A stretch of 40,272 nt of DNA from Candidatus Hermodarchaeota archaeon. GTDB lineage: Archaea; Asgardarchaeota; Lokiarchaeia; Sigyniarchaeales; SOKP01. A program made the position numbers and the translations under genes. The notes under the pieces are model-generated. The model saw only the letters and a list, made by a program, of their open reading frames with translations. It searched no databases and had not been told where the DNA came from. Numbering within the stretch: the stretch's first letter is position 1; every line of letters begins with the position of its first letter. Where the stretch lies: the NCBI GenBank assembly GCA_048885525.1, contig JBHLLP010000027.1:7118-47389 (forward strand), read 5' to 3'. Positions 1,741 to 23,222 of this stretch are shown one piece after another.

Positions 1741-2691
1741 TTATATATTGAAACCATCGTCAAAATCCTCCCATTCTTCGGCGGCTTGATCAAATCTCTT
1801 CTTTTCATCTTCTTTCTTCTCTCTCTTAATTTCCCTACGATCCTTACGAGTGATTTGATCATGCCTTTTTGTGTAGATCTCTTCGTATTTCTCTCTTAGC
1901 GCTTCAACATCCTCAACATGACCAATTTTATCTTCCAAACCGTCCTCAAAAAAATAGTTTTTCTTGAATTTTTTTGCGGGAACTCCCGCATATATGTATC
2001 CTCTCTCTAAAACCTGACCGATGGTAGTCACTGAATTCGCTGCTAAAATACATTTATTCCCGATATGGGTACCTGGCATAATTATGGCATGTGAACCAAT
2101 TCTCACATCGTCTTCAACAATTGTTTTCCTGACTATTAATAAATTACCTACAATTACAGCAGACTGAACTATTGCTCCTTGCCCTACAACCACATCTTTT
2201 CCAAACTCTACAAACTCCGCATCAACCCAACCCTCGAATAAGGAATTCGAGATTTTCGTCTTCACACCGAACATTTTGAAACAGACATTATCCATAAATC
2301 CAGGAAATGGAAATCTGTGAGCAAGCCAGATTGGCCATCTTTTTATAGTACTCCGAAGACTCCAATATCTGTAATCTTGATCTTCAGGTATTCGCAAAAA
2401 AACGCCTTCTCGAGGTTTATGAATAACATTTACAATAAGTAATATGATCTTTGCAATAATTATGGAAGAAAAAACGAGAGTAATATACATCAGAAAAGCT
2501 AAAAGTGGAAGAAATGTGTAGAAATGGACTGGTCTTATCGCATTCCATAAAAATCGCCAATAAACCCAAAATTCTAAGAGTATTGGAATAATACTTGCCC
2601 ATATAATAAAAATATATAAAATTAAATAACTTTTCTTTACGAGTACGTTTGTTGTAAAGGGTCCAACCCTCATCGTATTTGGAACACTCAT
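1741..2691 (-). CDS. Membrane LbH (hexapeptide-repeat) acyltransferase-like protein, module C
   Basis: Two TM segments, HKPREGVFLR..DYRYWSLR, hexapeptide repeats (VVVGQGAIVQ, VRIGSHAIIMPGTHIGNKCILA), YAGVPAK end motif. ATGA overlap with the upstream AB gene. Confidence 0.85.
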   Translation of the reverse strand: MSVPNTMRVGPFTTNVLVKKSYLILYIFIIWASIIPILLEFWVYWRFLWNAIRPVHFYTFLPLLAFLMYITLVFSSIIIAKIILLIVNVIHKPREGVFLRIPEDQDYRYWSLRSTIKRWPIWLAHRFPFPGFMDNVCFKMFGVKTKISNSLFEGWVDAEFVEFGKDVVVGQGAIVQSAVIVGNLLIVRKTIVEDDVRIGSHAIIMPGTHIGNKCILAANSVTTIGQVLERGYIYAGVPAKKFKKNYFFEDGLEDKIGHVEDVEALREKYEEIYTKRHDQITRKDRREIKREKKEDEKKRFDQAAEEWEDFDDGFNI

Positions 2692-4541
2692 TTTTCTCCA
2701 CCCTCTTTTTCGATTTTAATCAAATCTTTTTTATCTTCATCAATATTAACATCATGTGTTATTTCTATTTTCTCTGCCTCAGCTACTTGGCGCTTTATTA
2801 TCACGTCTCTTCTTTCTTCAGCATATTTGTTTTCTTTCAATTCAATTGCTGGTATTCCAAAATATATCCATGCAGGTTTTAGAACTTGATCATACGTACT
2901 TGTACTTAGAGCTCCAATAATGGACTCTTTCCCTATGACAGTTCCTGGAGAGATGGTAGTATGACCTCCAACCATTACGTAATCCTCAAAAAATACCTTT
3001 TTAATTATTAAATATCTCCCAACTACCATTGAAGACATTATAGTTGCTCCTTGACCGATCATAACCTTCCTACCAAATTTAATAAATTCAGAATCACACC
3101 ATGTATCAGCTAAATGGCTCGAATAATCCATATCAACCCCTAATTGTTTGAAAGCTAAAACATCAGTCCATGGAAATGGCGAATTTCGGAAAAGCCATAA
3201 TGCAATCTTTTTTAATTCAGTTCTCAACATCCAAAATTCGAAATCAGTATCTCTAATTTCAGCTTTAAAAACGCCCTCTTTAGGTTTGTGAATTAAATTA
3301 ACCAATATTAAAAAAAGCTTACTAAATAAGAGACATACTATAATAAAAATATATGTTAATGTAAACAAAATAAGTGGGAAGAAAAAGAAAAAAGCCCATT
3401 GAAAGTTTGTTGCAACTTGGCTCCGAGAGTACCAATACCACATTATAGTTACTACTAATCCTGAAAGCCAAAAAATAGGTATATAAACAAGTAAGAATTT
3501 TGTATTTACCCTACTTATTGCTGAACTTGTGGTGAAATCAAGTATTAAATCTTGTTCTGTCAGATTATCGATATTTACTACTTCTTCTTCAGGATGACCT
3601 AAAAATTGTTCCTTATCGAATTTTTCATCAAAAGTTTTTAAAACCCCTTTTTTCTCTTTAATTTCTTTCAATAGTTTCTTGTCGGAATACCCTTGAATAT
3701 TCTCACTCATTTCTAAGTCTTTAGGAACCACATCAAGATAATTCATAATTTTTTTTCTAAAAATTTTCCTCATTGGTAGTCCAAAATAATAATTGTTTCC
3801 TTTCATCACACTGTGTTTTGGGGTAGAAGCTAACGGTAAAAGATAAGCATTATCATCAAGTTCTGATCCTGGACCAATTCCGCTCATTGCAGATAATGTA
3901 ACATTATTTCCAACATTAATCTTAAAATATGAGATATTTCCAAAAACACCTTGGATTAGGTGACTGGCTAAGGTTGAATTGACCCCAATATAACAATTCT
4001 CTCCAATGTTAATAAATTTATCATTCCCTACAGATTCCTCGAAGGTTGTACCCTTACCAATTTTGTTTGATCTTACAAAATTAAAAAACCAATTCGATAA
4101 CCATGGAAACATACCCTTTGTAAATGTATTTTTTCCATATTTGATCATGAAACTTCTAATATGGTAATAATTAGCAGCTCTACTCTTAATATTTCGGGGT
4201 ATTATTCCAGATTTGGATGGTGAAATCCTTTCTGTAATTCCCCATATTAACCGTGTAATTAATCCAAGTAGAATTAAATGAAGTAAATAGCAGCTAATAA
4301 TAACCAAAGGCATAACAAATAAAGTCATTAAAGATCTTATATCAGTAAATAGGGAAAAAAATCCATGATTTTCTAAAAAAAATATTCGAAAAGGGAAGAA
4401 AAAATATAACCAAAAGACAAATCCCGGGATAACCCATGAAACATAATAGATTACCACGAAAATTATAATATATAAATGAAATTGAAGACTTACCTCTTCC
4501 TTTATAACTTCTTCAGTAGGTTTCAGTAATTTTTTCTTCAT
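2688..4541 (-). CDS. Membrane LbH acyltransferase-like protein, fused modules A+B
   Basis: Two tandem [2TM + LbH] units joined by a charged linker. Module A: SPSKSGIIPRN...ASHLIQG...YFGLP. Module B: DFTTSSAISR...KPKEGVF...YFGIPA. Confidence 0.85.
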   Translation of the reverse strand: MKKKLLKPTEEVIKEEVSLQFHLYIIIFVVIYYVSWVIPGFVFWLYFFFPFRIFFLENHGFFSLFTDIRSLMTLFVMPLVIISCYLLHLILLGLITRLIWGITERISPSKSGIIPRNIKSRAANYYHIRSFMIKYGKNTFTKGMFPWLSNWFFNFVRSNKIGKGTTFEESVGNDKFINIGENCYIGVNSTLASHLIQGVFGNISYFKINVGNNVTLSAMSGIGPGSELDDNAYLLPLASTPKHSVMKGNNYYFGLPMRKIFRKKIMNYLDVVPKDLEMSENIQGYSDKKLLKEIKEKKGVLKTFDEKFDKEQFLGHPEEEVVNIDNLTEQDLILDFTTSSAISRVNTKFLLVYIPIFWLSGLVVTIMWYWYSRSQVATNFQWAFFFFFPLILFTLTYIFIIVCLLFSKLFLILVNLIHKPKEGVFKAEIRDTDFEFWMLRTELKKIALWLFRNSPFPWTDVLAFKQLGVDMDYSSHLADTWCDSEFIKFGRKVMIGQGATIMSSMVVGRYLIIKKVFFEDYVMVGGHTTISPGTVIGKESIIGALSTSTYDQVLKPAWIYFGIPAIELKENKYAEERRDVIIKRQVAEAEKIEITHDVNIDEDKKDLIKIEKEGGEK

Positions 4542-4628
4542 TAAAAAACAATTGATACTTATTATAATTTAATAGATATTTTTTTTTCTTTTAAATATAT
4601 AAGTCTTAGGTAAAAAGAACAAACAATC

Positions 4629-5024
4629 ATGTTCGATAACTGTAAGGATTGCGGAAAGTGTTGTATAGAGACAGAGATGATTGTTTCCGAACACGACATT
4701 GATTTAATAATGGAAAAATACCAAAATCATAAAGTAAAGCAAGATTTTTGTATTAAAAATAAAAATAACTTTTTTCAACTGAAAAATATTGAAGGATATT
4801 GTGCTTTTTTTGAGAAATCTTCAAAGACCTGTGCTATCTACGAATATCGTCCACAAGGGTGTAAATTTTACCCTCTAATATTCGACTTTAAAAGAAAAAA
4901 ATGCATTTTTGATAAGGATTGTCCTAGAACTCATCTTTTCTATAAAAATAAGCAGATTTTGAAAAAAACTTGTGATGGTTTAAAGAAATTTTTAATCGAA
5001 CAGCTAAATTTAGAAATAAAATAA
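4629..5024 (+). CDS. YkgJ/UPF0153-family CxxCxxCC cysteine-cluster (putative Fe-S/Zn) protein
   Basis: CKDCGKCC, then C-x-F, CAIYEYRPQGCKFYP signature. Confidence 0.85.
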   Translation: MFDNCKDCGKCCIETEMIVSEHDIDLIMEKYQNHKVKQDFCIKNKNNFFQLKNIEGYCAFFEKSSKTCAIYEYRPQGCKFYPLIFDFKRKKCIFDKDCPRTHLFYKNKQILKKTCDGLKKFLIEQLNLEIK

Positions 5025-5039
5025 AATCTTGATCACTTT

Positions 5040-6860
5040 CTAGACATAATCCTTCTTATCTTCGTCGATATTGATTTCATGCTCAATTTCAAACTTCTTT
5101 TCTTCGTCGACATCCCTTTTCATAAGAATATCACGTCTTCCTTCAGCATATTTATTTGGTTTTAATTTAATTACCGGAATTCCAAAATAAATCCACCCAG
5201 GTTCAAGAACTTGATTATAAGTAGTTGTACTAAGAGCTCCAACCACTGAATCCCTACCTATAATTGTACCTGGAGAAACGATAGCTTGCCCTCCAACAAC
5301 TACATAGTCGTCAAGAATAACTCTTTTGATTATTAAGTATTTACCGATAATGGAACTGCTCATAACACTAGCTCCCTGCCCTATGATTACTCTACGTCCA
5401 AATGTAATAAATTCACCATCACACCAAGAATCCCATAAAGTACTTGATAAACTCATTTTAATCCCAAACCATTTAAAAGCTAAAATATCCATCCAAGGGA
5501 GAGGCCAATTTCTTATGAGCCAAAATGCTATCTTTTTTAATTCAGTTCGTAAACACCAAAATTCAAAATCAACGTCTCCTTTTTCTGCTCTAAATATTCC
5601 TTCTTTTGGCTTATGTATTAAATTTATTAAAATTAAGAAAAGTTTACTAAATATAAAACACCCAAAAATAAATACAAACCACATTATGATTAATATTGCT
5701 GGTAGAAAAAAAGCCATTAAAATCCAGTTTTGAACATACGAAGTGAAAGTATAAAAGACTACTGTATCTAGCATACCTGAGAGCCAAAAAATTGGAATAT
5801 ATACAGCTAAAAATTTTATGTTTACTCTTGAAATAGCACTACTAGTAGTAAAATCAATTCTTATATCTTCATTATCAATATCGTTTAAACTAATATTTTC
5901 TTTTCTTAATTCTGTCTTATCTTTTTTTAAATTGTTTTTAACATCATGTTGTTTTGGATTTATCTTAGTTTTTAATTTTTTAAAAAATCCTTTACTCTTA
6001 TATACTTCAATATTTTCATTTTTCTCTAAATCCTTTGGTGTTATTCTTAAAAAATTCATAATTTTTTTTCTGAAAATTTTTCTTAATGGCATACCCCAAT
6101 AATAATTATTTCCTTTAATTATACTATGCTTTGGGGTTGCTGCTAAAGGGAGTAAATAAGAATTATCGTAAGCTTCAGAACCTGGTCCTAAAACATTACT
6201 AGCTGCGGCAGTAAAATTATTACCAGTTTTAACTTTAAAATAAGAAATATTTCCAAACATCCCCTCTATTACATGGCTAGCTAACGCAGAATTAACACCA
6301 ATATAGCAATTTTCCCCAACTTCAATAAATTTGTCATTACTAACAGATTCTTCAAATGTAGTTCCCTTTCCTATTTTACTTGCCCGTATAAAATTAAAAT
6401 ACCAGTTGCTAAACCATGGAAAAGGTCCCTTCATAAAAGCATTCTTTCCATATTTGATCATGAAACCTCTAATTTGATAATAATTTAGTGTTTTACTTGG
6501 AAAATTTCTCGGAATGATCCCGTTCTTGCTAGGTGATCTTTTTTCAGTTAAAGTCCAAAAACCACGTGTTATTAAACCTATGAAAAATAAACGGATAAGA
6601 TAACAGCCAATGAGAACGAAAGGCATAGAGACCAATGCTAGAATGGGTTTAAGTTCAGTGAAAAGTGATAAAAAATTGTCAACAGTTAAAAAATTAGGTA
6701 TAAAAAAGAAAAATGTATACATTAGAAAAACAATAGCTGGAATAATTAATGAAGCTAAGAATATTGTGAAAAGAACAAATAAATACCAAAAATATTGAGT
6801 TTTTATCTCTTCCCGAATTGTTTTTTTCTTTGGAACAGTTCCAATTGATTGTTGTTCCAT
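5040..6860 (-). CDS. Membrane LbH acyltransferase-like protein, fused modules A+B (second copy, no adjacent C)
   Basis: Clear paralog of 2688-4541 along its full length (GIIPRN, ASHVIEG, DFTTSSAISR, KPNKYAE, NIDEDKK). Confidence 0.85.
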   Translation of the reverse strand: MEQQSIGTVPKKKTIREEIKTQYFWYLFVLFTIFLASLIIPAIVFLMYTFFFFIPNFLTVDNFLSLFTELKPILALVSMPFVLIGCYLIRLFFIGLITRGFWTLTEKRSPSKNGIIPRNFPSKTLNYYQIRGFMIKYGKNAFMKGPFPWFSNWYFNFIRASKIGKGTTFEESVSNDKFIEVGENCYIGVNSALASHVIEGMFGNISYFKVKTGNNFTAAASNVLGPGSEAYDNSYLLPLAATPKHSIIKGNNYYWGMPLRKIFRKKIMNFLRITPKDLEKNENIEVYKSKGFFKKLKTKINPKQHDVKNNLKKDKTELRKENISLNDIDNEDIRIDFTTSSAISRVNIKFLAVYIPIFWLSGMLDTVVFYTFTSYVQNWILMAFFLPAILIIMWFVFIFGCFIFSKLFLILINLIHKPKEGIFRAEKGDVDFEFWCLRTELKKIAFWLIRNWPLPWMDILAFKWFGIKMSLSSTLWDSWCDGEFITFGRRVIIGQGASVMSSSIIGKYLIIKRVILDDYVVVGGQAIVSPGTIIGRDSVVGALSTTTYNQVLEPGWIYFGIPVIKLKPNKYAEGRRDILMKRDVDEEKKFEIEHEINIDEDKKDYV

Positions 6861-8903: not shown

Positions 8904-10544
8904 TTGGAGTCTTATGATTTTGATAAGGACGTTCAAATCAATTTTAATGAATATTTTTCGAGTATAGAAAGAATAAATTGGAAACAGTGGCTGGAAATTG
9001 ATTCTAGAGAGGGATATGAGGAATTATCATTAAAACTCTCAGGGTTATCCAGTGTTGAAGATTTTTTCAATAGAATAAAATCTGAAAAAACTGACTCTAG
9101 AAGTTTCTCAATAGATTTAAAAGATTTTCTGGATAATAATAAAGGCTCTGACCAATTAATTTTTTGTCATACTTCTGGGACTACGAATAGTAATTTATCA
9201 ATGCTAAAATGGTTCCATATGACAAAAGATATTGTTAAAAGGCAATGGGCTCCCGGTATGCAGGCAATATTTGAATCGAGTGGATTAGATACAAATTCTT
9301 CTGCTATAATTTTTGTTCCTTCTAGATTAAAATTCGATGGGATCCGATCATATAAAGAGAAGAAATATATTTCACTCTATTCTTCAGAATTTTCTCAAAG
9401 AATTATGCTTTCTGTTATTAGACCTAAATCATATCTATTTTATGAATATAAGAATTCAAGAAATCTAGAAGTAATATCTAAAATTTTAACAATGAATAAT
9501 GTCTCTGTAATTTCTGCACCCGCAATTACGATTCTAGGATGGGCAGATATTACTCGACTTCAAGATGGAATAAAAAGATCGCTTGAGTTAGTAGATGAAA
9601 CTCAAAATCCAAAACTCGAGGAGCTTCTATTGAAAATTAAAAAGAAAGGATTGGATAATGCAGCAAAAGAAATCCAAAATGAATTATCAGAAAAAATTTC
9701 TAAAGCCACATTAATATTTAGTATTAGTTCTCTGGCAAAATCTGATTGGGAATTAATTCGGAGATTTATGAAATGGAATAAAAATCAAGAAAAATTTACT
9801 AATCTTTATGTAGCTTCTGAAATTGGTCCATTTGCGGCAAGTATTCATATGGGAGATTTTGAGATTTCACGTTCAAATAAAATGTACATTTTTCCTTTAA
9901 CGATTCCGGCATTAGAATATAGAGGAAAAAAAGAATTGATTTCAAGAACTAAAAGTAAATTCGGTAGACTTTATGTTTCACGACTTAATAATTCAGACAT
10001 ATTAATTAATATAGATTTAGGTGATGTTATTGTCATTAAAAATCAGGAAGGACTGCCTCAGATTGATGGGAAAATTTTACGCTCTAGTTTTCAATTAAAA
10101 TATCCAATAACCATCTCGAAAGATATATCATTAAAGAAAAATTATAATGTATTTGCAGGTGATTACTTCACTTTTCCTAATTTCGAAATAAAAGATCCAC
10201 GCACTCTACTGAATTGTTTGAAAGAGAAATGTGCTTTAGATCTTGATTCTTTATTATTAATTATCAATAAAGAATCAGTAAATAACTATTCGAAATTGTT
10301 TCTTTATTCAAATAATGGGAAAGATTGTTCTAATTTAGAGAATTACAGTAAAAATTTAATTATGTGTATCAAAAATGAAGATTTTAAAGAATCTATTTTA
10401 AAAAGTGAGATAAAATTACAATTAATTAAAACAAGTCCAGTAGATTTCTTAGCAACACGTTCAGACATGTTAGAGAAAGTCAGAAGCGGGAAAAATCCTA
10501 AAGGAGTTCTGAAAAAATGGCCTCTTTATGTTCTAGAAACGTGA
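8904..10544 (+). CDS. GH3-like acyl-adenylate-forming enzyme (ANL superfamily)
   Basis: HTSGTT P-loop-like motif, LYVASEIG (GH3 YxxSE) and IDLGDVI (GH3 YRLGD) in the expected order. TTG start preceded by AGGAG. Confidence 0.65.
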   Translation: MESYDFDKDVQINFNEYFSSIERINWKQWLEIDSREGYEELSLKLSGLSSVEDFFNRIKSEKTDSRSFSIDLKDFLDNNKGSDQLIFCHTSGTTNSNLSMLKWFHMTKDIVKRQWAPGMQAIFESSGLDTNSSAIIFVPSRLKFDGIRSYKEKKYISLYSSEFSQRIMLSVIRPKSYLFYEYKNSRNLEVISKILTMNNVSVISAPAITILGWADITRLQDGIKRSLELVDETQNPKLEELLLKIKKKGLDNAAKEIQNELSEKISKATLIFSISSLAKSDWELIRRFMKWNKNQEKFTNLYVASEIGPFAASIHMGDFEISRSNKMYIFPLTIPALEYRGKKELISRTKSKFGRLYVSRLNNSDILINIDLGDVIVIKNQEGLPQIDGKILRSSFQLKYPITISKDISLKKNYNVFAGDYFTFPNFEIKDPRTLLNCLKEKCALDLDSLLLIINKESVNNYSKLFLYSNNGKDCSNLENYSKNLIMCIKNEDFKESILKSEIKLQLIKTSPVDFLATRSDMLEKVRSGKNPKGVLKKWPLYVLET

Positions 10545-10587: not shown

Positions 10588-11427
10588 TTATGTTGGACTA
10601 AATACTCCAGCAAATACTAACCATGCTAGAAACGTTTTAGATACAAGGCTTAAAAGTTGATACACTCTTTCACCGTATAAATAATCCTTCCACTTTCCTA
10701 CTCCTTTATATTGCAGTATCATATTGATAGCGAATGTGTTAAAGAAAAATAGTTCGATTCCGTAAATCAAATAAACAAATAATGGTACTTCCCCTCCAAT
10801 GGTTTCAGTACTTATAAAGTATGCTGTAATAACAATCCAAGGAACTGCTCCAGCAATAACACCTAAATAATAAGGACCCCATTTAACTTTCTCATTCTTT
10901 TCTCTCGTATATACATTATATAGCTCCATCATTAGACCAAACATATTCATCAGTGCATTTAATACAAAAATCATAAACAATGACCAGAAATCCCAGACTC
11001 CAAAGAAAATAGCTATTAAAAAAATCATCACTGAACTTGAAAGTGCATACTCAAACCAACGTACTATATTTATTCCCTTTTTTAAATTTCGGACATAACT
11101 TTTATTAAGTGGATAGGCAATTAAGAGATGGGCGATAGCAGACATCAATAAGAAGGAACCAACAAATGCCCCTAAAGCACTAAAGACAAAAAGTACTGCA
11201 GGGTTAGGCGAAATAATAAAATCTGGACCAACAAGTTCAAACTTAAGGTAAAATGTGTAAATGTCTCTGGAAAAGGCAAGTTGAGGTAAAAAACCAAATA
11301 AAACCATGAGTAATCCTTGTACTAAATGTAAAATGCCCATATTTCTATTGAATTTTTTTAGATATTCAAATGAAATTGGAGATTCAGGTATTAGCCAACC
11401 TTCTTCTTTTTTATCGATAGAGTTCAT
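10588..11427 (-). CDS. heR: Heliorhodopsin
   Basis: 7 TM; LHLVQ (His), AIAH (His), RWFEYALSSS counterion motif, ERVYQLLSLVSK with the retinal-binding Lys. Confidence 0.95.
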   Translation of the reverse strand: MNSIDKKEEGWLIPESPISFEYLKKFNRNMGILHLVQGLLMVLFGFLPQLAFSRDIYTFYLKFELVGPDFIISPNPAVLFVFSALGAFVGSFLLMSAIAHLLIAYPLNKSYVRNLKKGINIVRWFEYALSSSVMIFLIAIFFGVWDFWSLFMIFVLNALMNMFGLMMELYNVYTREKNEKVKWGPYYLGVIAGAVPWIVITAYFISTETIGGEVPLFVYLIYGIELFFFNTFAINMILQYKGVGKWKDYLYGERVYQLLSLVSKTFLAWLVFAGVFSPT

Positions 11428-14740: not shown

Positions 14741-15541
14741 TTAATTCAACTTAATAATGGAATTATAAAATTCTGTTCGACGGTCCTTGATTAAATTATT
14801 AAACTCATTTAATTTTTTATCTCTAGCTTTCTGAATATCAATTTCTATAATATCAACATAATTTTTTTCATCAGGTGCAGATGATAAAATTTCACCGTTA
14901 AATGATGTTATTTGACTTCTACCCGTAAATTTAAAATGATCCTCTCCTCGCTTTTCTTCACCTATTCTATTTGAAGTTATAGCAAATACCCGATTTTCTA
15001 AACATCTCGTTACCATAGCCTTTTGGCAATACGGAAGGACTAAGTTTGCAGGATGAGCAATAATATCAGCGCCTAAAAGGGCAAGGATCCGTGCGGTTTC
15101 CGGAAAAATCCAATCAAAACAAATCATGATACCTACTTTAACCCCATTTAAATCATATACTTTTAAAGGTTTGTTTCCTGGAGAAAACCATAGTTTTTCT
15201 TTATAATATAAATGCATTTTCCGATAAGAGCCTATTACTCCTTTTTTTGATACTATCATTGCGGCATTGTATATTTTTTCTCCTTCTTTTTCGATAAATC
15301 CACCAATAGCTGTTGATCCCGTTGATCTGGCAAGATTTAAAAGAAATTGAGCGGTTTCACCATCTTGATTTTCTGCTAAAGATACTGCTTCTTTTTTAGA
15401 AACAAAAGCATAACCTGTAGCAAATAATTCTGGTAAAACAATTAAATCTGCTTTCAAATTTGATGTAACGATTTCAATTTCTTTAAAATTTTGCTCTTTG
15501 TTTCCAAAAAATGGAGAAGTTTGAATATAACCAACTTTCAT
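14741..15541 (-). CDS. Carbon-nitrogen hydrolase (nitrilase superfamily)
   Basis: Catalytic triad motifs VLPEL, YRKMHL, ICFDWIFPE. Confidence 0.92.
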   Translation of the reverse strand: MKVGYIQTSPFFGNKEQNFKEIEIVTSNLKADLIVLPELFATGYAFVSKKEAVSLAENQDGETAQFLLNLARSTGSTAIGGFIEKEGEKIYNAAMIVSKKGVIGSYRKMHLYYKEKLWFSPGNKPLKVYDLNGVKVGIMICFDWIFPETARILALLGADIIAHPANLVLPYCQKAMVTRCLENRVFAITSNRIGEEKRGEDHFKFTGRSQITSFNGEILSSAPDEKNYVDIIEIDIQKARDKKLNEFNNLIKDRRTEFYNSIIKLN

Positions 15542-15588: not shown

Positions 15589-16437
15589 TTAATCAATTTT
15601 AGTTTCCTTATCTTTACGTACTGTGTATAATTCTTCAAATCTAACTTGTGATTCTATTTTCTTCTCTTCTTGTTTTTTTATAATGTCTTCTAAACCATCC
15701 TCAAGAAATACATTTTTTTTAAATTTTTTTGCTGGAGCACCCAAATAAACCCAATTTTCTTCAATTTCTTGACCTACTGTAGTCATAGAATGCCCAGCTA
15801 AAATTGAATTCTGTTTCATATGTGTTCCGGGCATAACAACACTTTGAGCCCCAATTACCACATTATCTTCAATAATAGTTTTTCTTATAATAAACAGATT
15901 TCCGACTATAATTGCTGATTGGATAATAGCACCTTGTCCTACTACTATATTTTTACCAAATTCAATAAACTCTGTATCAACCCAACCTTCAAATAAAGAA
16001 TTAGAATAAGTAGTTTTTACACCAAATATTTTAGAACAAATATTATCCATAAAAGGAAAAGGAAACTTATGTGAAAGCCATATTGGCCATTTTTTTATAG
16101 TACATCTCAAGCTCCAATATCTATAATCTTTATCTGATTGATTTCTTAAAAACACACCTTCTCGAGGTTTATGAATAAGATTAATAATTACCAAAATTAA
16201 TTTAGCAAAAATTAGAGATACTAATATTGATGTTAAATACATTAAAAAAACTAAAAGAGGTAAGAACAACAAAAAGTGAATAAATTTTGGCTCATAAAGT
16301 TTCCAAAACACCCAAAATTCAAATTGAATCGAAAAAATACTAATCCAGATTAGAAAGACATAAAAGATTAAATATCTTTTCTTTGCTAAGATAAGAGTTG
16401 TATTGGGTCCTACTTTTAGACTCGAAGGAACTGACAT
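15589..16437 (-). CDS. Membrane LbH acyltransferase-like protein, module C
   Basis: Paralog of 1741-2691 (MSVP..VGP.TT, HKPREGVFLR, SNSLFEGWVD, EDGLED). Confidence 0.85.
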   Translation of the reverse strand: MSVPSSLKVGPNTTLILAKKRYLIFYVFLIWISIFSIQFEFWVFWKLYEPKFIHFLLFLPLLVFLMYLTSILVSLIFAKLILVIINLIHKPREGVFLRNQSDKDYRYWSLRCTIKKWPIWLSHKFPFPFMDNICSKIFGVKTTYSNSLFEGWVDTEFIEFGKNIVVGQGAIIQSAIIVGNLFIIRKTIIEDNVVIGAQSVVMPGTHMKQNSILAGHSMTTVGQEIEENWVYLGAPAKKFKKNVFLEDGLEDIIKKQEEKKIESQVRFEELYTVRKDKETKID

Positions 16438-16442: not shown

Positions 16443-17333
16443 TTAATCTCCTAAATTATTATTAATAAATTTTTTCTTATCTTCATCAATATTAACTTCT
16501 TGTTTAACTTCATATTTTATTTCATCATCTACATGTTTCTCATAGATAATATCTCTTCGTTGTTCAGCATATTTATTGGGTTTTAGTTTCCTAGCATAAT
16601 GAGGACCTAAGTAAATCCAACCAGGTTCAATATTTTGGTTTGGAATTGTTGCTGAAAATGTCCCTATAACAGATTCTTTCCCTATATTCGTACCGGGAGA
16701 TATAAGTGATAAACCTCCCACAACAGAATAATCTTCTAGTATAATCTTTTTAATTATCAAATACTTTCCAACAACCATTGAGCTCATTACAACAGCTCCT
16801 TGACCTACAGTAACATTTCTACCAAATTCAATAAATCCACCATCTGCCCACGCATCTTGCATATGACTAGAAAAATCTACTTTAATATTCATCCATCTAA
16901 AACCCCACATAACGATCCAAGTTATTGGTCCATTATTCATAAACCAAAAAACTAATTTCTTTAATTCTACTCTTAATCTCCAAAATTCATAATCTCGGTC
17001 ACCTTTTTCAGCTCTAAAAACCCCCTCTCTAGGTTTATGTACCATATTAATTATAAGAATGAAAGCTTTAGTAAAAATCGCAATTCCAAAGACGAAAATG
17101 AAATACAATACGAATAGCCATACAGGGATTAAAAATATATTAATATACCATTGTATATACAGTGAGACGTCGAAAAATACAGCTACGGTCATATATCCTG
17201 AAGCCCATAAGATAGGGATATATAATGCAAGGAACTTATACCCAATTTTACTTATTGCACTTGTAGTTACAAAATCAATAGTATAATCTACTTTGTTCTC
17301 TTTAATTTTTTCGTTTCTAATTTTAGAGCTCAT
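16443..17333 (-). CDS. Membrane LbH acyltransferase-like protein, stand-alone module B
   Basis: Matches the C-terminal half of the AB fusions (DFVTTSAIS, KPREGVFRAE, KPNKYAEQRRD, VNIDEDKK). GTGAG upstream of ATG. Confidence 0.85.
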   Translation of the reverse strand: MSSKIRNEKIKENKVDYTIDFVTTSAISKIGYKFLALYIPILWASGYMTVAVFFDVSLYIQWYINIFLIPVWLFVLYFIFVFGIAIFTKAFILIINMVHKPREGVFRAEKGDRDYEFWRLRVELKKLVFWFMNNGPITWIVMWGFRWMNIKVDFSSHMQDAWADGGFIEFGRNVTVGQGAVVMSSMVVGKYLIIKKIILEDYSVVGGLSLISPGTNIGKESVIGTFSATIPNQNIEPGWIYLGPHYARKLKPNKYAEQRRDIIYEKHVDDEIKYEVKQEVNIDEDKKKFINNNLGD

Positions 17334-18246
17334 TTAGTTTTTTCTCACTTTTTCTTTTTCTTTTCTTCAATAAGTTTAGTCTTTCATTATATTCTTCCGC
17401 CCTTTTCAAATCTTCCTGTGAGATTTGTAAGTATTCCATAACCTTTCTTTTAAAAATCTTTCTTAAAGGCGTTCCATAATAGAAGTTATTTCCTTTCATA
17501 ATATTATACTTAGTTGCTCCTGTCATAGGCAACCATATAGAATTATCTCCAGTTTGTACTCCTGGTGCGAAACAATTAAAGCCAGCAGTAGTAACATTAT
17601 CTCCGATTTTCACTTTTGCAAATGAAATGTTACCGAAAACTCCATCTACAGAATGTGAACTAATACCTGGATTTGTCCCAATGTAAGAATTTTCCCCAAC
17701 TTCTACAAATCGATCACCAGCAACTTGTTCTTCAATAACCGAACCTTTACCTATTGTATTAGTACCTACGAAGTTAAACATCCACTTTAATAACCAGGGA
17801 AATGGACCACGAGAAAATGCATTTTTAGGATATTTGATGATAAAGCTACGAAAATGATAATAATTCAATGTCTTACTAGGTATATTTCGCGGAATGATTC
17901 CAGATTTAGATGGAGATCTTTTTTCTGAGAAATTCCAAAACCATCGAGAAATTAACGCTACAATAATTAAATGTAGTAAATAACACCCTATTAATACAAA
18001 CGGCATTGTTAAAGAGGCAATAAGAGAAGGTAAATTTGTAAAAAGAGAGATAAAACTCTCAACTTCTAAGAAATTTGGTAAATAGAATAATAATATATAT
18101 AGCATAAAAATGATCCCTGGTATTAAAAAAGAGCAATAGTAAATAAAATAGAACAAGGGTAACCATAAATTCAATTGCAATCGAATTTCTTCCTTTATAA
18201 GTTTATTTTCTGAGTTGTTAGTTTGATCTGAACTTCGAGATTCCAA
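17323..18246 (-). CDS. Membrane LbH acyltransferase-like protein, stand-alone module A
   Basis: Matches the N-terminal half of the AB fusions (SPSKSGIIPRNIPS, SSHSVDG, YYGTPLRKIF). Confidence 0.85.
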   Translation of the reverse strand: MESRSSDQTNNSENKLIKEEIRLQLNLWLPLFYFIYYCSFLIPGIIFMLYILLFYLPNFLEVESFISLFTNLPSLIASLTMPFVLIGCYLLHLIIVALISRWFWNFSEKRSPSKSGIIPRNIPSKTLNYYHFRSFIIKYPKNAFSRGPFPWLLKWMFNFVGTNTIGKGSVIEEQVAGDRFVEVGENSYIGTNPGISSHSVDGVFGNISFAKVKIGDNVTTAGFNCFAPGVQTGDNSIWLPMTGATKYNIMKGNNFYYGTPLRKIFKRKVMEYLQISQEDLKRAEEYNERLNLLKKRKRKSEKKLNEL

Positions 18247-18319
18247 TTGTTCTCACAAAAGTTAATATTTTCTCTAATCTGTTCTATATTTTTATGATTT
18301 TTATTTATATACTTTTAAG

Positions 18320-18346
18320 TATTTAAAAATTTTCAGATTAAAAATC
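18320..18346 (-). promoter_or_regulatory. Putative TATA box plus upstream inverted repeat for the A/B/C operon
   Basis: + strand TATTTAAAAATTTTCAGATTAAAAATC, conserved at 23296-23322. Minus strand gives a TTTAAATA box. Confidence 0.55.
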
Positions 18347-18413
18347 ATAAGATTGTTAGAAAAAATCAATAAAATTATTTTGAGTTTTGAATTTTTTTTT
18401 TGAAGAAAAGAAT

Positions 18414-19511: not shown

Positions 19512-19580
19512 TAGGTTATTAATATTTAAAGAAATTCAATTTTATAAGAATTTAACAGTTCCTTTTATTTAAATTTTATA

Positions 19581-20402
19581 TTACTTTTCTTTTGGAAACC
19601 ATGGGAAAAATACACGTGTTTTCCGCTTATATTCTGCATATTTATCATCACCTTCAAATCTCTTATCAAGAAGTCTTATTCCGGAGACTTTAATAATCAT
19701 ATAGGTAATAAATATTGGTCCTATAATACTTATAAAACCGAATGGAGTTGCAAGTGCAATTATATATATTCCCCACCATTGAGTTACCTCACCAAAATAA
19801 TTAGGATGCTGTGAATATTTCCATAAGCCTTTGTCTAATACTTTACCTTTATTATTTGGATCTTGCTTAAATCTATAAAGCTGGTAATCTCCAAAAGTTT
19901 CAAATAAAAATCCTATTAGCCATACTATTATTCCAATCCATAAAGTAAGTCCGATAAAGTCAACAAAGCTTTCTAATGGAGGATTTGGACTTATATTAAC
20001 AAACCAGACGGGAAAAGCAACTATAAATATAACAATCCCTTGAAAAATGTACACTCGTATAAGGCTTTTCAAGATAATGTTAGTTTTCCATCTCCGTCTC
20101 ATAGCTGCATATCGATAATCTTCTGGTTTCCCTCGATTTCTAATAAAGACATATGTGGCAAGTCTGATAGACCAAATTATTACTAACACTGTAACTATAA
20201 TTTGGCGAATATTTACCGTGTTGTTTATTATAAAATAGTATATTACACTGGTTAGAGCTACTACAGAATATCCAGGTCCATAGAAGATATCCATTAGACC
20301 ATTATTTTTTTTTATTGTACCAACCACAAAAGCTATAAAAAGATATATTAAAAGAAACAACGCAGAATATCCTATGATAATTAACATATTTTCTATTGTC
20401 AT
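19581..20402 (-). CDS. DUF1295 family membrane protein (steroid 5-alpha-reductase-like)
   Basis: EDYRY, GDYQLYRFK, GLWKYSQHPNYFGE, YAEYKRKTRVFFPWFP motifs; multiple TM segments. Confidence 0.9.
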   Translation of the reverse strand: MTIENMLIIIGYSALFLLIYLFIAFVVGTIKKNNGLMDIFYGPGYSVVALTSVIYYFIINNTVNIRQIIVTVLVIIWSIRLATYVFIRNRGKPEDYRYAAMRRRWKTNIILKSLIRVYIFQGIVIFIVAFPVWFVNISPNPPLESFVDFIGLTLWIGIIVWLIGFLFETFGDYQLYRFKQDPNNKGKVLDKGLWKYSQHPNYFGEVTQWWGIYIIALATPFGFISIIGPIFITYMIIKVSGIRLLDKRFEGDDKYAEYKRKTRVFFPWFPKEK

Positions 20403-20486
20403 TTTTTTTTCCTATATTTAATCGTTTAATACCAATAATTGAATCATATTTTTATTATTTTATCTTATAAAAATTAAGATTATCTG

Positions 20487-20518
20487 AAATTAGTAATTCA
20501 AATCTGGATTTTTCTTTA
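20487..20518. repeat. 32-bp imperfect direct repeat, copy 1 (copy 2 at 23441-23472)
   Basis: AAATTAGTAATTCAAATCTGGATTTTTCTTTA vs AAATTATTAATTCCAATCTGGATTTTCCTTTA, 29/32 identical. Confidence 0.7.
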
Positions 20519-20561
20519 TTACCAAAAATAGGATATCTCTGATAATAACTAAATGCTGTAT

Positions 20562-21410
20562 TTATTCTATTTGTACTTGCTTATCTTTTCGTAGAGTATA
20601 CAATTCTTCAAATTTTATTTTTGTTTTTATTTTCTCTTCAGCTTGTCTTTTAATTATATCTTCTAGACCATCTTCAAAAAATACATTTTTTTTGAATTTT
20701 TTTGCTGGTCCACCCAAATAAACCCAACCTTCTTCTAATTCCTGTCCTACGGTGGTCATAGAACTGCCAGCTAAAATTGAATTTCTTTTTATATGGGTTC
20801 CAGGCATTACAACGCTATGGGCTCCAATAACAACATTATCTTCTATGACTGTTTTTCTTAAAATAAATAGATTCCCAACTATAACCGCTGATTGGATGAT
20901 CGCACTTTGCCCAACTACTACATGCTTACCGAATTCTATGAATTCTGTATCAATAAATCCTTCAAAGAGAGAATTTGAGAATGTAGTTTTTATTCCAAAC
21001 ACTTTTAAACATATATTATCTAGAAATGGAAAGGGAAATTTATGAGATAGCCATAATGGCCATTTTTTTATCGTACTTCTTAAACTCCAATATCTAAAAT
21101 CCTTATCAGAATGATGTCTGAGAAAAACTCCTTCTCTAGGTTTATGAATTAGATTAATAATAACTAGTAATAGTTTCGCAAAAAATAAAGAAACGAATAC
21201 AGAGGTTAAATACATTATAAAAATTAAAATTGGTAGAAAAAATAAGAATTGAATAAATTTTGGTTCATAAAGTCTCCAAATAAACCATAGTTCAAATTGA
21301 ATCGAAAAAATACTTATCCAAATTAGAAATATATAAAAAATCAAGTACCTCTTCTTTACTATAGTCAGAGTAGTATTTGGACCAACATTTAAACTTGAAG
21401 GCACAGACAT
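20562..21410 (-). CDS. Membrane LbH acyltransferase-like protein, module C
   Basis: Close paralog of 15589-16437, same length (282 aa). Confidence 0.85.
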   Translation of the reverse strand: MSVPSSLNVGPNTTLTIVKKRYLIFYIFLIWISIFSIQFELWFIWRLYEPKFIQFLFFLPILIFIMYLTSVFVSLFFAKLLLVIINLIHKPREGVFLRHHSDKDFRYWSLRSTIKKWPLWLSHKFPFPFLDNICLKVFGIKTTFSNSLFEGFIDTEFIEFGKHVVVGQSAIIQSAVIVGNLFILRKTVIEDNVVIGAHSVVMPGTHIKRNSILAGSSMTTVGQELEEGWVYLGGPAKKFKKNVFFEDGLEDIIKRQAEEKIKTKIKFEELYTLRKDKQVQIE

Positions 21411-21415
21411 TTCTT

Positions 21416-22306
21416 TTACTCCTCCTTATTACCATTTAAAAGCTCTTTCTTATCTTCATCAATATTTACTTCTTGTTCAACTTCATATTTCACTTCTTCA
21501 TCTACTTGTCTCCTTAAAATTACATCACGTCTTTGTTCTGCATATTTATTAGGCTTCAATTTTCTTGCGATTGGTTGACCCAAATAAATCCAAGCTTGTT
21601 CTATAAGTTGGTTGGGAATAGTTGTAGTAAAGCCACCAAGTATAGATTCTTTACCCATAATTGTACCTGGAGAAACATTTGACATACCACCGACTACTAT
21701 ATGATCTCCAAGGATGATTCTTTTGATTATTAAATAGTTTCCTACCACCATTGAGCTCATCACTGCAGTTCCTTGTCCAACAGTAATATTTCGGCCAAAC
21801 TCTATAAATTCTCCGTCAACCCAAGCGTCCTGGGCATGACTAGAAAAATCAATTCTTACACCCAACCATCTAAATCCCCACATAACGACCCATGGGAGAG
21901 GTCCTCTACTCATGAACCAAAGAACCAATTTTTTTAGTTCTACTCGAAGTCTCCAGAATTCATAATCTTGATCTCCCTCTTCTGCTCTAAACACGCCCTC
22001 TTTAGGGCGATGAAGCATATTTATTATGAGGATGAATGCTTTTGTAAAGATTGCAATACCAAATATAAAAATGAAATATAAAATGAATACCCATACTGGT
22101 AGTAAAAACATATTTATATACCATGGAATATATAGTGAAACATCGAAAAATACTGCAACAGCCATATAGCCTGAAATCCATAGGATAGGGATATAGAGAG
22201 CTAGAAATTTAATACCAATTCTACTAATAGCACTACTTGTAACAAAATCAATAGTATAATCTCTTTCTTTCTTATTAATTTTACTCAGTTCCGGATCTTC
22301 AATCAT
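21416..22306 (-). CDS. Membrane LbH acyltransferase-like protein, stand-alone module B
   Basis: Close paralog of 16443-17333, same length (296 aa). Confidence 0.85.
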   Translation of the reverse strand: MIEDPELSKINKKERDYTIDFVTSSAISRIGIKFLALYIPILWISGYMAVAVFFDVSLYIPWYINMFLLPVWVFILYFIFIFGIAIFTKAFILIINMLHRPKEGVFRAEEGDQDYEFWRLRVELKKLVLWFMSRGPLPWVVMWGFRWLGVRIDFSSHAQDAWVDGEFIEFGRNITVGQGTAVMSSMVVGNYLIIKRIILGDHIVVGGMSNVSPGTIMGKESILGGFTTTIPNQLIEQAWIYLGQPIARKLKPNKYAEQRRDVILRRQVDEEVKYEVEQEVNIDEDKKELLNGNKEE

Positions 22307-23222
22307 TTAATAAATTCCTTCTTTTTTTCTTTTTCTTACTTTCTGATAAACTTAACTTTTGAGTTAGCTCTTGAGCTTTTTGTAGATCATCCTCAGTAAC
22401 TTGAAGGTAATCCATAATCTTCTTTTTAAAAATCTTCCTAAGAGGAGCACCAAAATAGATCGCATTCCCCTTCAATATATTATACTTAGTTACTCCCGTC
22501 ATTGGTAACCATGATGAGTTATCACCTGTATCAACTCCGGGAGCTACACAATTAAACCCAGCAGTAGTGAAATTATTTCCTATTTTTACTTTTGCAAATG
22601 AAATATTACCAAAAATGCCCTCAACAGTATGAGAACTCACACCTGCATTTGTACCAATATAACAATTTTCTCCAATTTCTACAAATCTATCTCCCGCAAG
22701 TTGTTCCTCAATGACAGAACCTTTCCCTATTACGTTAGTTCTAGCAAAATTATACATCCATTTTAATAACCATGGAAAAGGACCACGTGAAAAAGCATTC
22801 TTTGGATATTTGATGATAAAGCTACGAAAGTGATAATAATTTAATGTTTTACTAGGAATATTTCTAGGAATAATTCCTGACTTTGTAGGAGATCTTTTTT
22901 CCGAAAAACTCCAATACCAACGGGTTATTAAAGCTACAATAAATAGATGAATTAAATAACATATTATAATGATAAATGGAATTGTTAAAGAGGCAATTAA
23001 GGAAGGTAGATTAGTAAAAAGAACAATAAAACTTTGCTCTTTTAAGAAATTTGGTAGATAAAATAACATAATATAAAGCATGAAAATTATCGCTGGAACT
23101 AAAAATGAGCAAAAGTACATAAAAAAGAATGCTGGTAACCAAAAATGCAATTTTAGACTAATTTCTTCTTTAATAATATTATTTCCAGAATTTTCTTTTT
23201 GTTCTGAATTTTGTGATTCCAA
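22299..23222 (-). CDS. Membrane LbH acyltransferase-like protein, stand-alone module A
   Basis: Paralog of 17323-18246. Start moved to TTG at 23222 (MESQ.. matches MESR.. of the paralog); the GTG at 23234 sits in the shared TAACTTTTGTG RBS-like motif. Confidence 0.85.
   Translation of the reverse strand: MESQNSEQKENSGNNIIKEEISLKLHFWLPAFFFMYFCSFLVPAIIFMLYIMLFYLPNFLKEQSFIVLFTNLPSLIASLTIPFIIIICYLIHLFIVALITRWYWSFSEKRSPTKSGIIPRNIPSKTLNYYHFRSFIIKYPKNAFSRGPFPWLLKWMYNFARTNVIGKGSVIEEQLAGDRFVEIGENCYIGTNAGVSSHTVEGIFGNISFAKVKIGNNFTTAGFNCVAPGVDTGDNSSWLPMTGVTKYNILKGNAIYFGAPLRKIFKKKIMDYLQVTEDDLQKAQELTQKLSLSESKKKKKRRNLLND

What the first reader, a model, noticed from the sequence alone, without database searches (positions are those of the whole stretch)
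1741..23222. Expanded three-subunit (A/B/C) membrane LbH acyltransferase system resembling a stand-alone, split Pls-type NRPS terminal region
Seen: 11 copies of a [2 TM + left-handed beta-helix] module in 9 genes. They fall into three distinct types, always transcribed A-B-C and translationally coupled (4-, 8- and 11-nt overlaps, 5-nt gaps). Established: LbH acyltransferases act as trimers with active sites at subunit interfaces, and epsilon-poly-L-lysine synthetase (Pls/PosA family, TIGR02353 terminal domain) has three tandem TM-flanked acyltransferase-like domains after an A-T didomain. Inference: A+B+C assemble into a membrane heterotrimer equivalent to the Pls C1-C2-C3 pseudo-trimer, without a fused A or T domain. 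This would be an apparently uncharacterised archaeal membrane acyl-transfer or amide-polymer system acting on lipids, surface glycans or a poly-amino acid.
Basis: partly seen in the sequence, partly recalled or inferred. Interest (0 to 1): 0.9.

Follow-up and report, generated by a model that had tools for sequence, protein, structure and literature searches.

The report
Split Pls-like membrane acyltransferase, expanded
A Lokiarchaeal (Asgard) genome carries many copies of three different "membrane hairpin plus beta-helix" proteins that most likely assemble into a ring-shaped membrane acyltransferase with one active site, built like the polymer-making end of bacterial poly-lysine synthetases but lacking their amino-acid-loading parts; what it makes is unknown.

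Summary
Nine minus-strand genes encode 11 modules of [2 TM helices + left-handed beta-helix] in three types (A, B, C), with the stated overlaps and gaps.

In 77 related Asgard loci the order is always A-B-C or AB-C. The natural fusions AB, CA and C-A-B are the cyclic permutations expected of a ring. A+B+C modelled as one complex (ipSAE 0.88, best control 0.43). A natural 797-aa C-A-B fusion folds as one body (pTM 0.77).

Only A keeps the His that aligns with the catalytic His of LacA and maltose acetyltransferases. The same is true of one of the three modules in a genuine Pls/PosA enzyme.

The link to Pls rests on fold and architecture. The nearest non-self ESM Atlas clusters are Pls/PosA, and profile matches reach 71-95% over the beta-helix. 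The TM/linker part shows no significant sequence match, TIGR02353 scores lie far below its cut-off, and no adenylation or carrier domain is fused or consistently adjacent. This is a relative of Pls, not a member.

The family was found in 76 of 77 sampled genomes of the window's class and in 1 of about 223 other Asgard genomes. Its substrate is unknown. The scan found the same system earlier in other genomes, with the same reading.

The parts
22299..23234 (-). A1: type-A subunit, 311 aa from GTG 23234 (307 aa if started at 23222). It has 2 TM helices, an LbH and the invariant Ser-His of the LbH loop (H202).
21416..22306 (-). B1: type-B subunit (296 aa). Its start overlaps the end of A1 by 8 nt. 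It has no His at the canonical catalytic position but has an invariant SSH just before the LbH.
20562..21410 (-). C1: type-C subunit (282 aa), 5 nt after B1. It has no His at the canonical position. Its conserved N-terminal peptide lies in the predicted interface.
17323..18246 (-). A2: type-A subunit of the second cassette (307 aa), 73% identical to A1.
16443..17333 (-). B2: type-B subunit (296 aa), overlapping A2 by 11 nt.
15589..16437 (-). C2: type-C subunit (282 aa), 5 nt after B2.
14741..15541 (-). Nitrilase-superfamily C-N hydrolase, 47 nt downstream of C2. The same gene follows the split A-B-C cassette within 2-81 nt in 34 of 56 related cassettes and follows none of 18 AB-C cassettes. 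It is an associated gene and is not shown to be a partner.
5040..6860 (-). Fused A-B protein (606 aa, 4 TM helices, 2 LbH) with no C gene directly behind it. The arrangement AB, about 550 bp, AB-C recurs in many genomes.
4629..5024 (+). Small CxxCxxCC (PF03692) protein on the opposite strand, in the gap between the two AB genes. It holds this position in 35 of 77 related loci. Its role is unknown.
2688..4541 (-). Fused A-B protein (617 aa). Its end overlaps the start of the next C gene by 4 nt.
1741..2691 (-). C4: type-C subunit (316 aa) with an acidic and basic C-terminal tail.

Best explanation
A, B and C are paralogous subunits of one integral-membrane enzyme. Each subunit contributes a two-helix membrane hairpin, a short linker (strand plus two helices) and a cytoplasmic left-handed beta-helix.

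One A, one B and one C pack into a heterotrimer, a six-helix membrane bundle under a three-beta-helix prism, with fixed cyclic order A>B>C>A.

Only A keeps the general-base histidine of the LacA/maltose acetyltransferase type. Its loop faces B, so the complex has a single canonical active site at the A-B interface. B and C are conserved but catalytically degenerate partners.

The fused AB proteins carry that whole site in one chain and need only a C subunit to close the ring. This would explain why several AB (or A) genes share one C gene.

The enzyme most likely transfers an acyl or aminoacyl group from a CoA-type thioester, bound on the cytoplasmic side, to an acceptor held at or passing through the membrane bundle. 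This is the same chemistry and the same architecture as the C1-C2-C3 polymerising domain of Pls/PosA synthetases, but without the fused adenylation and carrier domains.

Shown: gene anatomy, conservation, the fusions, fold similarity and the His pattern. Inferred: stoichiometry, location of the active site, the thioester donor and any acceptor.
For: Gene order and spacing:
- The order A-B-C or AB-C holds in all 77 related loci. The only three C genes without an upstream B lie at contig ends or next to masked bases.
- Tight coupling is conserved.

Fusions:
- Among the best 150 of the 507 representatives that match in 1.84 billion proteins there are 6 AB, 11 CA and 2 C-A-B fusions. All follow the cyclic order, apart from one weak 'AC' hit and one 107-aa fragment classed 'BC'.

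Structure predictions:
- Complex prediction of A+B+C gave ipSAE 0.88 against a best control of 0.43, with 91% contact agreement and partner pLDDT 85. The mark was reached by 58 of 80 solved complexes and 2 of 110 mismatched pairs. The tool warns that these counts hold only roughly for my own alignments and for three chains.
- AF2 of the natural C-A-B fusion gave pTM 0.77 and three repeats of the same element order.

Catalytic His:
- The invariant His of A (H202) aligns with the catalytic His115 of LacA (1kqa) and the equivalent His of maltose acetyltransferase (3srt). The residue numbering and the catalytic role are from my own knowledge.
- B and C have Ser or Ala at that position.
- In the predicted complex the His-equivalent loop of C packs on A and that of B packs on C, so by symmetry the loop of A faces B.

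Conservation and topology:
- C is the most conserved type between cassettes, at 60-80% against 47-75% for A and B.
- The loops between the two TM helices are very short and the flanks are rich in Lys and Arg, which places the beta-helix in the cytoplasm.

Likeness to Pls:
- Atlas fold search.
- TIGR02353 is the top or a near-top NCBIfam hit for B, C and AB proteins.
- Profile-profile probabilities are 71-95%.
- The His of A aligns with the invariant His of Pls module 3, while Pls modules 1 and 2 lack it.
Against:
- Homotrimers (AAA, BBB, CCC) could not be modelled for comparison. LbH trimers are a textbook assembly, so the complex score may partly reflect memory of solved homotrimers.
- Only the best of five AF2 models of the C-A-B fusion was confident (mean pLDDT 72.9; the others 56-64).
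- Sister families of the class have two-gene sets, in which the B/C-type partner sometimes keeps the His. The picture of one active site in a 1:1:1 complex is therefore not universal.
- B has its own invariant SSH motif in split cassettes, which could form a second, non-canonical site.
- No CoA-binding residues were checked.
- No conserved neighbour points to a substrate.
Confidence: 0.65

Rival explanations
1. A true split poly-amino-acid (Pls-type) synthetase. The ABC ring polymerises an amino acid that is activated in trans by a separate adenylating enzyme and carrier, for example the 546-aa TSGTT-motif protein at 8904-10544 or the acyl-CoA ligase at 26195-27862. It would extrude a polyamide through the six-helix bundle.
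For: The architecture and the one-His-in-three pattern match Pls/PosA. The 546-aa orphan lies between the cassettes in 31 of 77 related loci. A nitrilase-family amidase follows 34 of 56 split cassettes, which is compatible with amide chemistry.
Against: No carrier (PP-binding) domain is fused or adjacent anywhere. The 546-aa protein has no Pfam, NCBIfam or PDB match. It was not found in four genomes of sister families that do carry the modules. Its linkage is therefore confined to one syntenic family. The own genome has no protein above the TIGR02353 cut-off. The amidase is of a common archaeal nitrilase type and is linked only to split cassettes of one family.
Confidence: 0.1
2. Three separate enzymes. 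A, B and C each form their own homotrimer and carry out different acyl transfers in one pathway. The operon order reflects co-regulation, not assembly.
For: Homotrimers are the rule for hexapeptide acyltransferases (established knowledge). Copy numbers are unequal in some loci, such as A-A-A-B-C and AB-AB-AB-C. Some B'-type and ancestral B/C-type modules keep the His.
Against: B and C in the window lack the catalytic His yet are as conserved as A. The fusions AB, CA and C-A-B in cyclic order are hard to reconcile with separate homotrimers. In the predicted heterotrimer C contacts both A and B confidently, with ipSAE 0.88 against a best control of 0.43 (91% contact agreement, partner pLDDT 85). 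The single-chain C-A-B fusion folds as one body.
Confidence: 0.1
3. A non-catalytic membrane scaffold or channel-like complex. The beta-helix prism would serve as a structural or binding platform, as the gamma-carbonic-anhydrase-like heterotrimer does on plant and protist complex I, and the conserved His of A would be a relic.
For: The best solved matches of C include the complex I gamma-CA-like subunits, which form a membrane-attached heterotrimer (Z 15.1 to 7ard_z). Two of the three subunits have lost the His.
Against: The His of A is invariant across 46 orthologues and all divergent A-clade members. No His inside the beta-helix of C is invariant, so a gamma-CA-type metal site is not conserved. 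The closest whole-module fold relatives are the Pls/PosA catalytic domains.
Confidence: 0.1

Closest known systems
C-terminal polymerising domain (C1-C2-C3; NCBIfam TIGR02353) of Pls/PosA-family NRPS-like synthetases (epsilon-poly-L-lysine and delta-poly-L-ornithine synthetases)
   Same: - Three [2 TM helices, strand, two helices, left-handed beta-helix] modules form a (pseudo)threefold unit on a six-helix membrane bundle (PosA model in PMC10522769).
- The beta-helices are cytoplasmic.
- Only one of the three modules keeps the His at the canonical acyltransferase position.
- Profile similarity is weak but significant over the beta-helix and the helix before it.
   Different: - The modules are separate genes, or two- or three-module fusions in a different cyclic start (AB, CA, CAB), not one chain.
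- No adenylation or carrier domain is present.
- Scores are at most 54 bits against a cut-off of 423.
- The TM/linker sequence shows no significant similarity.
- Asgard modules form their own clade, so the triplication is probably independent.
- The family is archaeal and restricted to the window's class.
- The product is unknown.
Soluble hexapeptide-repeat acyltransferases of the LacA / maltose O-acetyltransferase / LpxD kind (Pfam PF00132)
   Same: Left-handed beta-helix fold, with VIA-align Z of 11-14 to solved acetyl- and acyltransferases. The His of A aligns with the catalytic His of LacA and MAT. A trimeric prism with interface active sites is expected.
   Different: The solved enzymes are soluble homotrimers with three equal sites. 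Here each subunit has an N-terminal membrane hairpin and linker, three different subunits are used, and only one carries the His.
Gamma-carbonic-anhydrase-like heterotrimer of plant and protist respiratory complex I (for example 7ar9, 7ard, 7tgh)
   Same: A membrane-attached heterotrimer of diverged LbH paralogues, some of them catalytically dead. These are the top sequence and fold matches of type C in the PDB.
   Different: There is no conserved His metal triad in the beta-helix of C, the membrane anchoring differs, and there is no link to complex I genes in the window.

Membership tests
Pls/PosA family NRPS terminal domain (TIGR02353) | Score above the curated cut-off of the family model (423.1 bits) | tested here: not met
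   The best window protein scores 52.1 bits (AB 2688-4541) and single modules 11.6-38 bits. The natural C-A-B fusion scores 54.3 bits. The own genome's best hit is 43 bits. A genuine member, P0276, scores 602 bits.
Pls/PosA family NRPS terminal domain (TIGR02353) | Fused N-terminal adenylation and carrier (PP-binding) domains | tested here: not met
   None of the nine proteins has an AMP-binding or PP-binding domain. The search for longer relatives returned only one protein, a bacterial Pls. No carrier gene is adjacent in the window or in loci of sister families.
Pls/PosA family NRPS terminal domain (TIGR02353) | Three tandem [TM pair + acetyltransferase-like domain] modules in one polypeptide | tested here: not met
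   In the window the modules are split into three genes, or into two as AB + C. A three-module single chain does exist in relatives, but in the order C-A-B (P0123).
Pls/PosA family NRPS terminal domain (TIGR02353) | Module fold: TM hairpin, strand, two core helices, five-turn left-handed beta-helix | tested here: met
   The AF2 model of C1 has these elements in that order, matching the published PosA model. In the Atlas fold search the Pls/PosA cluster has TM 0.63 over query residues 4-261. Both sides of the comparison are predictions.
Pls/PosA family NRPS terminal domain (TIGR02353) | Sequence homology across the whole module, including the TM and linker part | tested here: inconclusive
   Whole-module profile comparisons give 71-95% probability, and 23% for B against Pls3. 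B against P0276 gives 77% over 172 columns. The TM+linker halves alone score no better than reversed controls.
Pls/PosA family NRPS terminal domain (TIGR02353) | Iterative amide-bond polymerisation of a diamino acid | not testable with these tools
   This needs biochemistry.
Hexapeptide-repeat (LbH) acyltransferase superfamily (Pfam PF00132) | Hexapeptide repeats detected by the family model | tested here: met
   Hexapep scores exceed the 27-bit cut-off for C1, C2, C4 and both AB fusions. A and B alone score 17-20 bits or are not listed.
Hexapeptide-repeat (LbH) acyltransferase superfamily (Pfam PF00132) | Left-handed beta-helix fold | tested here: met
   AF2 models. Foldseek and VIA-align match solved LbH enzymes, with Z of 11-15.
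Hexapeptide-repeat (LbH) acyltransferase superfamily (Pfam PF00132) | General-base His at the LacA His115 / MAT position | tested here: met
   Met in type A only. The invariant H202 aligns with that His in 1kqa and 3srt. It is not met in types B and C of the window.
Hexapeptide-repeat (LbH) acyltransferase superfamily (Pfam PF00132) | Trimeric assembly with active sites between subunits | tested here: inconclusive
   The predicted heterotrimer passes its controls (ipSAE 0.88 against a best control of 0.43, 91% contact agreement, partner pLDDT 85), and the fusions support a ring. No experiment was done and no homotrimer comparison was possible.
Hexapeptide-repeat (LbH) acyltransferase superfamily (Pfam PF00132) | Use of an acyl-CoA or acyl-carrier thioester donor | not testable with these tools
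   Inferred from the family only.
Gamma-class carbonic anhydrase | Three conserved His metal ligands in the beta-helix | tested here: not met
   No His within the beta-helix (residues about 158-241) is among the invariant or near-invariant columns of the 46-sequence C alignment.

The most novel reading that the evidence does not exclude
Lokiarchaeia possess a stand-alone version of the Pls-type membrane polymerase, assembled from exchangeable A, AB and C subunits. It builds and extrudes an as yet unseen polymer or acylated envelope component, for example a polyamide or an N-acylated glycolipid, from CoA-activated building blocks. The many A and AB variants per genome would set different substrate specificities on a shared C subunit.
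Probability: 0.12. Interest if true: 0.9.

Novelty: new variant of a known kind. Interest (0 to 1): 0.65.

Why it matters
- The family is present in every sampled genome of the window's own order (75 of 75), with up to 17 modules in this one genome. Public records call it only 'hypothetical' or 'DapH/DapD/GlmU-related'.
- It is the first stand-alone relative of the unsolved Pls/PosA polymerising domain. Its separate, smaller subunits may be easier to work with structurally, and they give a natural experiment on how a homotrimeric acyltransferase becomes an asymmetric machine with one active site.
- If its product is a membrane lipid or envelope modification, it bears on the cell surface of the archaea closest to eukaryotes, about which little is known.
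- The series of split, two-module and three-module forms is a clean case of gene fusion recording subunit order.

Tried and rejected
- **Solved structure of a Pls-type module.** Sequence and profile searches of the PDB, Foldseek and VIA-align wide found only beta-helix matches. No solved chain covers the hairpin plus the helix.
- **TM/linker-only profile comparison to Pls modules.** This gave no signal above reversed controls, so I do not claim whole-module sequence homology.
- **One-to-one mapping of A, B, C onto Pls C1, C2, C3.** Profile scores give no consistent pairing and the tree groups all Asgard modules together. I rejected the mapping. Low-GC against high-GC composition and long branches weaken that tree.
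- **The 546-aa TSGTT-motif gene as a loading partner.** It has no family or PDB match and was not found in four module-bearing genomes of sister families. I rejected it as an obligate partner.
- **Conserved neighbours across sister families.** The neighbouring genes are unrelated to one another: GT4, a class II aminoacyl-tRNA synthetase, aconitase, aminotransferase, CBS, GDPD. They give no substrate clue.
- **Literature searches.** Searches for Asgard or Lokiarchaeal hexapeptide membrane acyltransferases and for a Pls cryo-EM structure returned nothing.
- **Sigma-70 promoter scan.** It is uninformative for an archaeon and gave no more hits than shuffled sequence.
- **Locus L020.** The apparent lone C gene is an artefact of 200 masked bases.
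- **ABC versus homotrimers.** Not run, because only one complex job is allowed.


Full report
**What is there**

The window has nine minus-strand genes made of one repeated unit:
- two split cassettes, A1-B1-C1 (23234-20562) and A2-B2-C2 (18246-15589)
- a fused AB gene (6860-5040)
- a second fused AB gene followed by C (4541-1741)

That makes 11 units. Each unit has two long hydrophobic helices followed by hexapeptide repeats.

Identity within a type is 47-80%. B and C are about 35% identical over their full length. A is 19-27% identical to B or C but still aligns end to end.

The same genome holds six more, divergent units:
- a C-A fusion followed by B on contig C31
- a B'/C' pair on C24
- a lone A' on C44

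**Is it more than chance, and how widespread is it?**

A scan of one genome per prokaryote species found 77 loci, all in Asgard MAGs. In them:
- C is always preceded by B or by an AB fusion. The only three exceptions lie at contig ends or next to masked bases.
- A-to-B and B-to-C distances are mostly -8 to +6 nt.
- The layout AB, about 550 bp, AB-C recurs in over a dozen genomes.
- A-A-A-B-C and AB-AB-AB-C also occur.

An exhaustive HMMER search of 1.84 billion representative proteins found only 507 relatives at E <= 0.001. Every named one that I looked up is Asgard.

A profile of type C was searched in 301 Asgard species genomes. It hit:
- 68 of 68 genomes of the window's own GTDB family
- 7 of 7 genomes of the sister family in the same order
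- 1 of 2 other genomes in the same class
- 1 of about 223 genomes elsewhere; that one hit is nearly identical to the own-family type and may be a misbinned contig

The family is thus specific to the window's class (Lokiarchaeia-type Asgard) and universal in its order among the genomes searched. Some NCBI records label carrier MAGs as Hod-, Odin-, Thor- or Hermodarchaeota. The GTDB-based sampling does not bear those labels out.

**Evidence for one heteromeric complex**

1. Conserved order and translational coupling.
2. Natural fusions. Among the best 150 representatives I classified 6 AB, 11 CA and 2 full C-A-B fusions. Only one weak AC hit and one 107-aa fragment classed BC depart from this. 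AB, CA and CAB are the cyclic permutations of A>B>C, as expected if the three units sit in a ring with fixed handedness.
3. Complex prediction with my alignments of 46 orthologues per subunit gave ipSAE 0.88 in three runs against 0.43 for the best control, with 91% contact agreement and partner pLDDT 85. The mark was reached by 58 of 80 solved complexes and 2 of 110 mismatched pairs. The tool warns that these counts hold only roughly for own alignments and three chains, and that likeness to solved LbH trimers can inflate the score.
4. AlphaFold2 of the natural 797-aa C-A-B protein gave pTM 0.77 and mean pLDDT 72.9. It shows three repeats of TM, TM, strand, helix, helix, beta-helix, with low confidence only in the two inter-module linkers. 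The other four models were weaker.
5. C contacts both A and B through its beta-helix, its TM helices and its invariant N-terminal peptide. This explains why that peptide is conserved.

I could not compare ABC with homotrimers, because only one complex job is allowed.

**Active site**

The A alignment has an invariant Ser-His in a beta-helix loop (H202 of A1). In profile alignments to solved enzymes this His falls on His115 of E. coli LacA (1kqa) and on the equivalent His of maltose acetyltransferase (3srt). That these are the catalytic bases is my own knowledge of those enzymes.

At the same column B has Ser and C has Ser or Ala.

The His is present in all divergent A-clade members. It is also present in the B'-type units and in the single B/C-type unit of the most distant family. 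Its loss in B and C is therefore derived.

In the predicted complex the His-equivalent loop of C (173-181) packs on the A face (192, 223, 241), and that of B (181-191) packs on the C face (194-198). By symmetry the His loop of A should face B. This is an inference.

It would place the only canonical site at the A-B interface, inside a single chain in the AB fusions. It fits several AB or A genes sharing one C gene, and C being the most conserved type between cassettes.

B also has an invariant SSH just before its beta-helix in split cassettes. This motif is lost in the orphan AB at 5040-6860, so a second, non-canonical site cannot be excluded.

**Topology**

The loop between the two TM helices is only a few residues long, and both flanks are rich in Lys and Arg (sequences; helices). 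The beta-helices should therefore be cytoplasmic, where CoA thioesters are available. This is inferred from the positive-inside rule.

**Relation to Pls/PosA**

The published AlphaFold/RoseTTAFold model of the PosA terminal domain describes three five-turn left-handed beta-helices packed like an acyltransferase trimer on six TM helices. Two core helices and a strand lie between each TM pair and its beta-helix (PMC10522769).

The AF2 model of C1 has the same elements in the same order. In the ESM Atlas the nearest clusters after the Asgard ones are PP-binding+Hexapep proteins, including 'Pls/PosA family non-ribosomal peptide synthetase', with TM 0.63 by query over residues 4-261. In the PDB only the beta-helix part finds partners.

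At sequence level:
- TIGR02353 is the first or second NCBIfam hit for B, C and AB proteins, but at 25-52 bits against a cut-off of 423.
- I obtained a genuine Pls/PosA protein (P0276, 602 bits) and 39 relatives, cut them into three modules and compared profiles. Probabilities were 71-95% for eight of nine pairs, mostly over the beta-helix and the helix before it.
- The TM+linker halves alone gave nothing above reversed controls.
- The His of A aligns with an invariant His of Pls module 3, and Pls modules 1 and 2 lack it. Both systems therefore keep one His in three.
- A quick maximum-likelihood tree puts all Asgard modules in one clade (SH-aLRT 95), with A (96) apart from B/C (92), and puts Pls1+Pls2 (90) apart from Pls3. 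Taken at face value, the three-way differentiation arose independently in the two lineages. Composition bias and long branches make this tentative.

The most distant family in the class has only an A gene followed by one B/C-type gene. This suggests an ancestral two-type complex that later split B from C.

**What it is not**

It is not a member of the Pls/PosA family: there are no A or T domains and it lies far below the cut-off. It is not a gamma-carbonic anhydrase, since no conserved His triad is present in C.

**Neighbourhood and substrate**

Within the window's own family the region is syntenic in this order:
1. ribonucleotide reductase
2. DUF1295
3. A-B-C
4. nitrilase-family hydrolase
5. 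UvdE
6. PNPOx-like protein
7. heliorhodopsin
8. the 546-aa orphan
9. DUF6512
10. alcohol dehydrogenase
11. AB
12. CxxCxxCC gene on the opposite strand
13. AB-C

The window has an extra cassette (A1-B1-C1) between the reductase and DUF1295.

The nitrilase-family gene follows 34 of 56 split cassettes within 2-81 nt, but follows none of 18 AB-C cassettes. It is of a common archaeal type.

In sister families the neighbours are unrelated to one another. The 546-aa orphan is absent there.

On contig C44 the lone A' is followed on the same strand by an acyl-CoA-synthetase-like gene and a PIG-L-family de-N-acetylase. That order recalls the deacetylate-then-N-acylate logic of LpxC and LpxD. It was not seen next to the lone A' unit examined in one genome of the sister family (L090) and remains only a lead.

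No substrate can be named from the sequence.

**Comparison with earlier notes of this scan**

The same system was noted in several other genomes. Two follow-up reports reached the same reading: a split Pls-like membrane acyltransferase with a single active site, and an amidase linked in only one sub-lineage. My tests were run independently on this window and agree with them.

**Verdict**

The heterotrimer reading is well supported by genomic and modelling evidence, and the Pls likeness is real at the level of fold and logic but not of family membership. Function remains open.

I rate it a new variant of a known kind, of considerable interest for Asgard cell biology and for understanding Pls-type polymerases.

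Noticed in passing
window 4629-5024 (+): A 131-aa CxxCxxCC (PF03692, putative Zn/Fe-chelating) protein is encoded on the opposite strand in the gap of about 500 bp between the two AB genes. A homologue sits in the same place in 35 of 77 related loci.
   Followed up: partly
window 8904-10544 (+): A 546-aa protein with a TSGTT-like motif has no Pfam, NCBIfam or PDB match. It is conserved (63-80% identity) in 31 of 77 related loci but was not found in four genomes of sister families.
   Followed up: partly
own genome contig C44, locus L094:730-4319 (-): A lone A'-type module is followed on the same strand by an AMP-binding acyl-CoA-synthetase-like gene (586 aa) and a PIG-L-family de-N-acetylase. 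This pairs a deacetylase with an LbH acyltransferase, as in LpxC/LpxD. The lone A' unit examined in one sister-family genome (L090) has a GDPD gene beside it instead.
   Followed up: partly
window 14741-15541 (-): A nitrilase-superfamily C-N hydrolase (best NCBIfam nitrile_Arch, 298 bits, below the cut-off of 500) lies 47 nt after C2. The same gene follows 34 of 56 split A-B-C cassettes elsewhere and none of 18 AB-C cassettes.
   Followed up: yes
window 10588-11427 (-): A heliorhodopsin gene (PF18761, E 4e-85) is up to 95% identical in related genomes and lies within the conserved syntenic block.
   Followed up: no
window 19581-20402 (-): A DUF1295 membrane protein (of the steroid-reductase / ICMT / PEMT-like kind) lies 159 nt after C1. 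In genomes with a single cassette it lies upstream of A-B-C, so A1-B1-C1 looks like an extra cassette inserted between the ribonucleotide reductase gene and DUF1295.
   Followed up: partly
own genome contig C31, locus L096 (C31:17671-20089, -): A C-A fusion (about 510-541 aa) is followed by a B gene. This is the cyclically permuted form of the cassette, and it sits in the same genome as the A-B-C forms.
   Followed up: yes
G241 contig C82 (other Asgard family): This is the only hit outside the window's class. It is an A-B-C set nearly as similar to the query as own-family copies (E 5.5e-143), in a genome with 7% contamination. A misbinned contig or a recent transfer are both possible.
   Followed up: no
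ESM Atlas feature search with A1: A cluster of 339-aa Hexapep proteins from Bdellovibrionota scores 0.94 at rank 21. These are possible bacterial stand-alone relatives of the module. No sequence was available to test.
   Followed up: no
window 37357-38130 (-): A 257-aa protein gives a weak, sub-threshold hit to PIG-P (E 0.009, 16 bits against a cut-off of 39).
   Followed up: no
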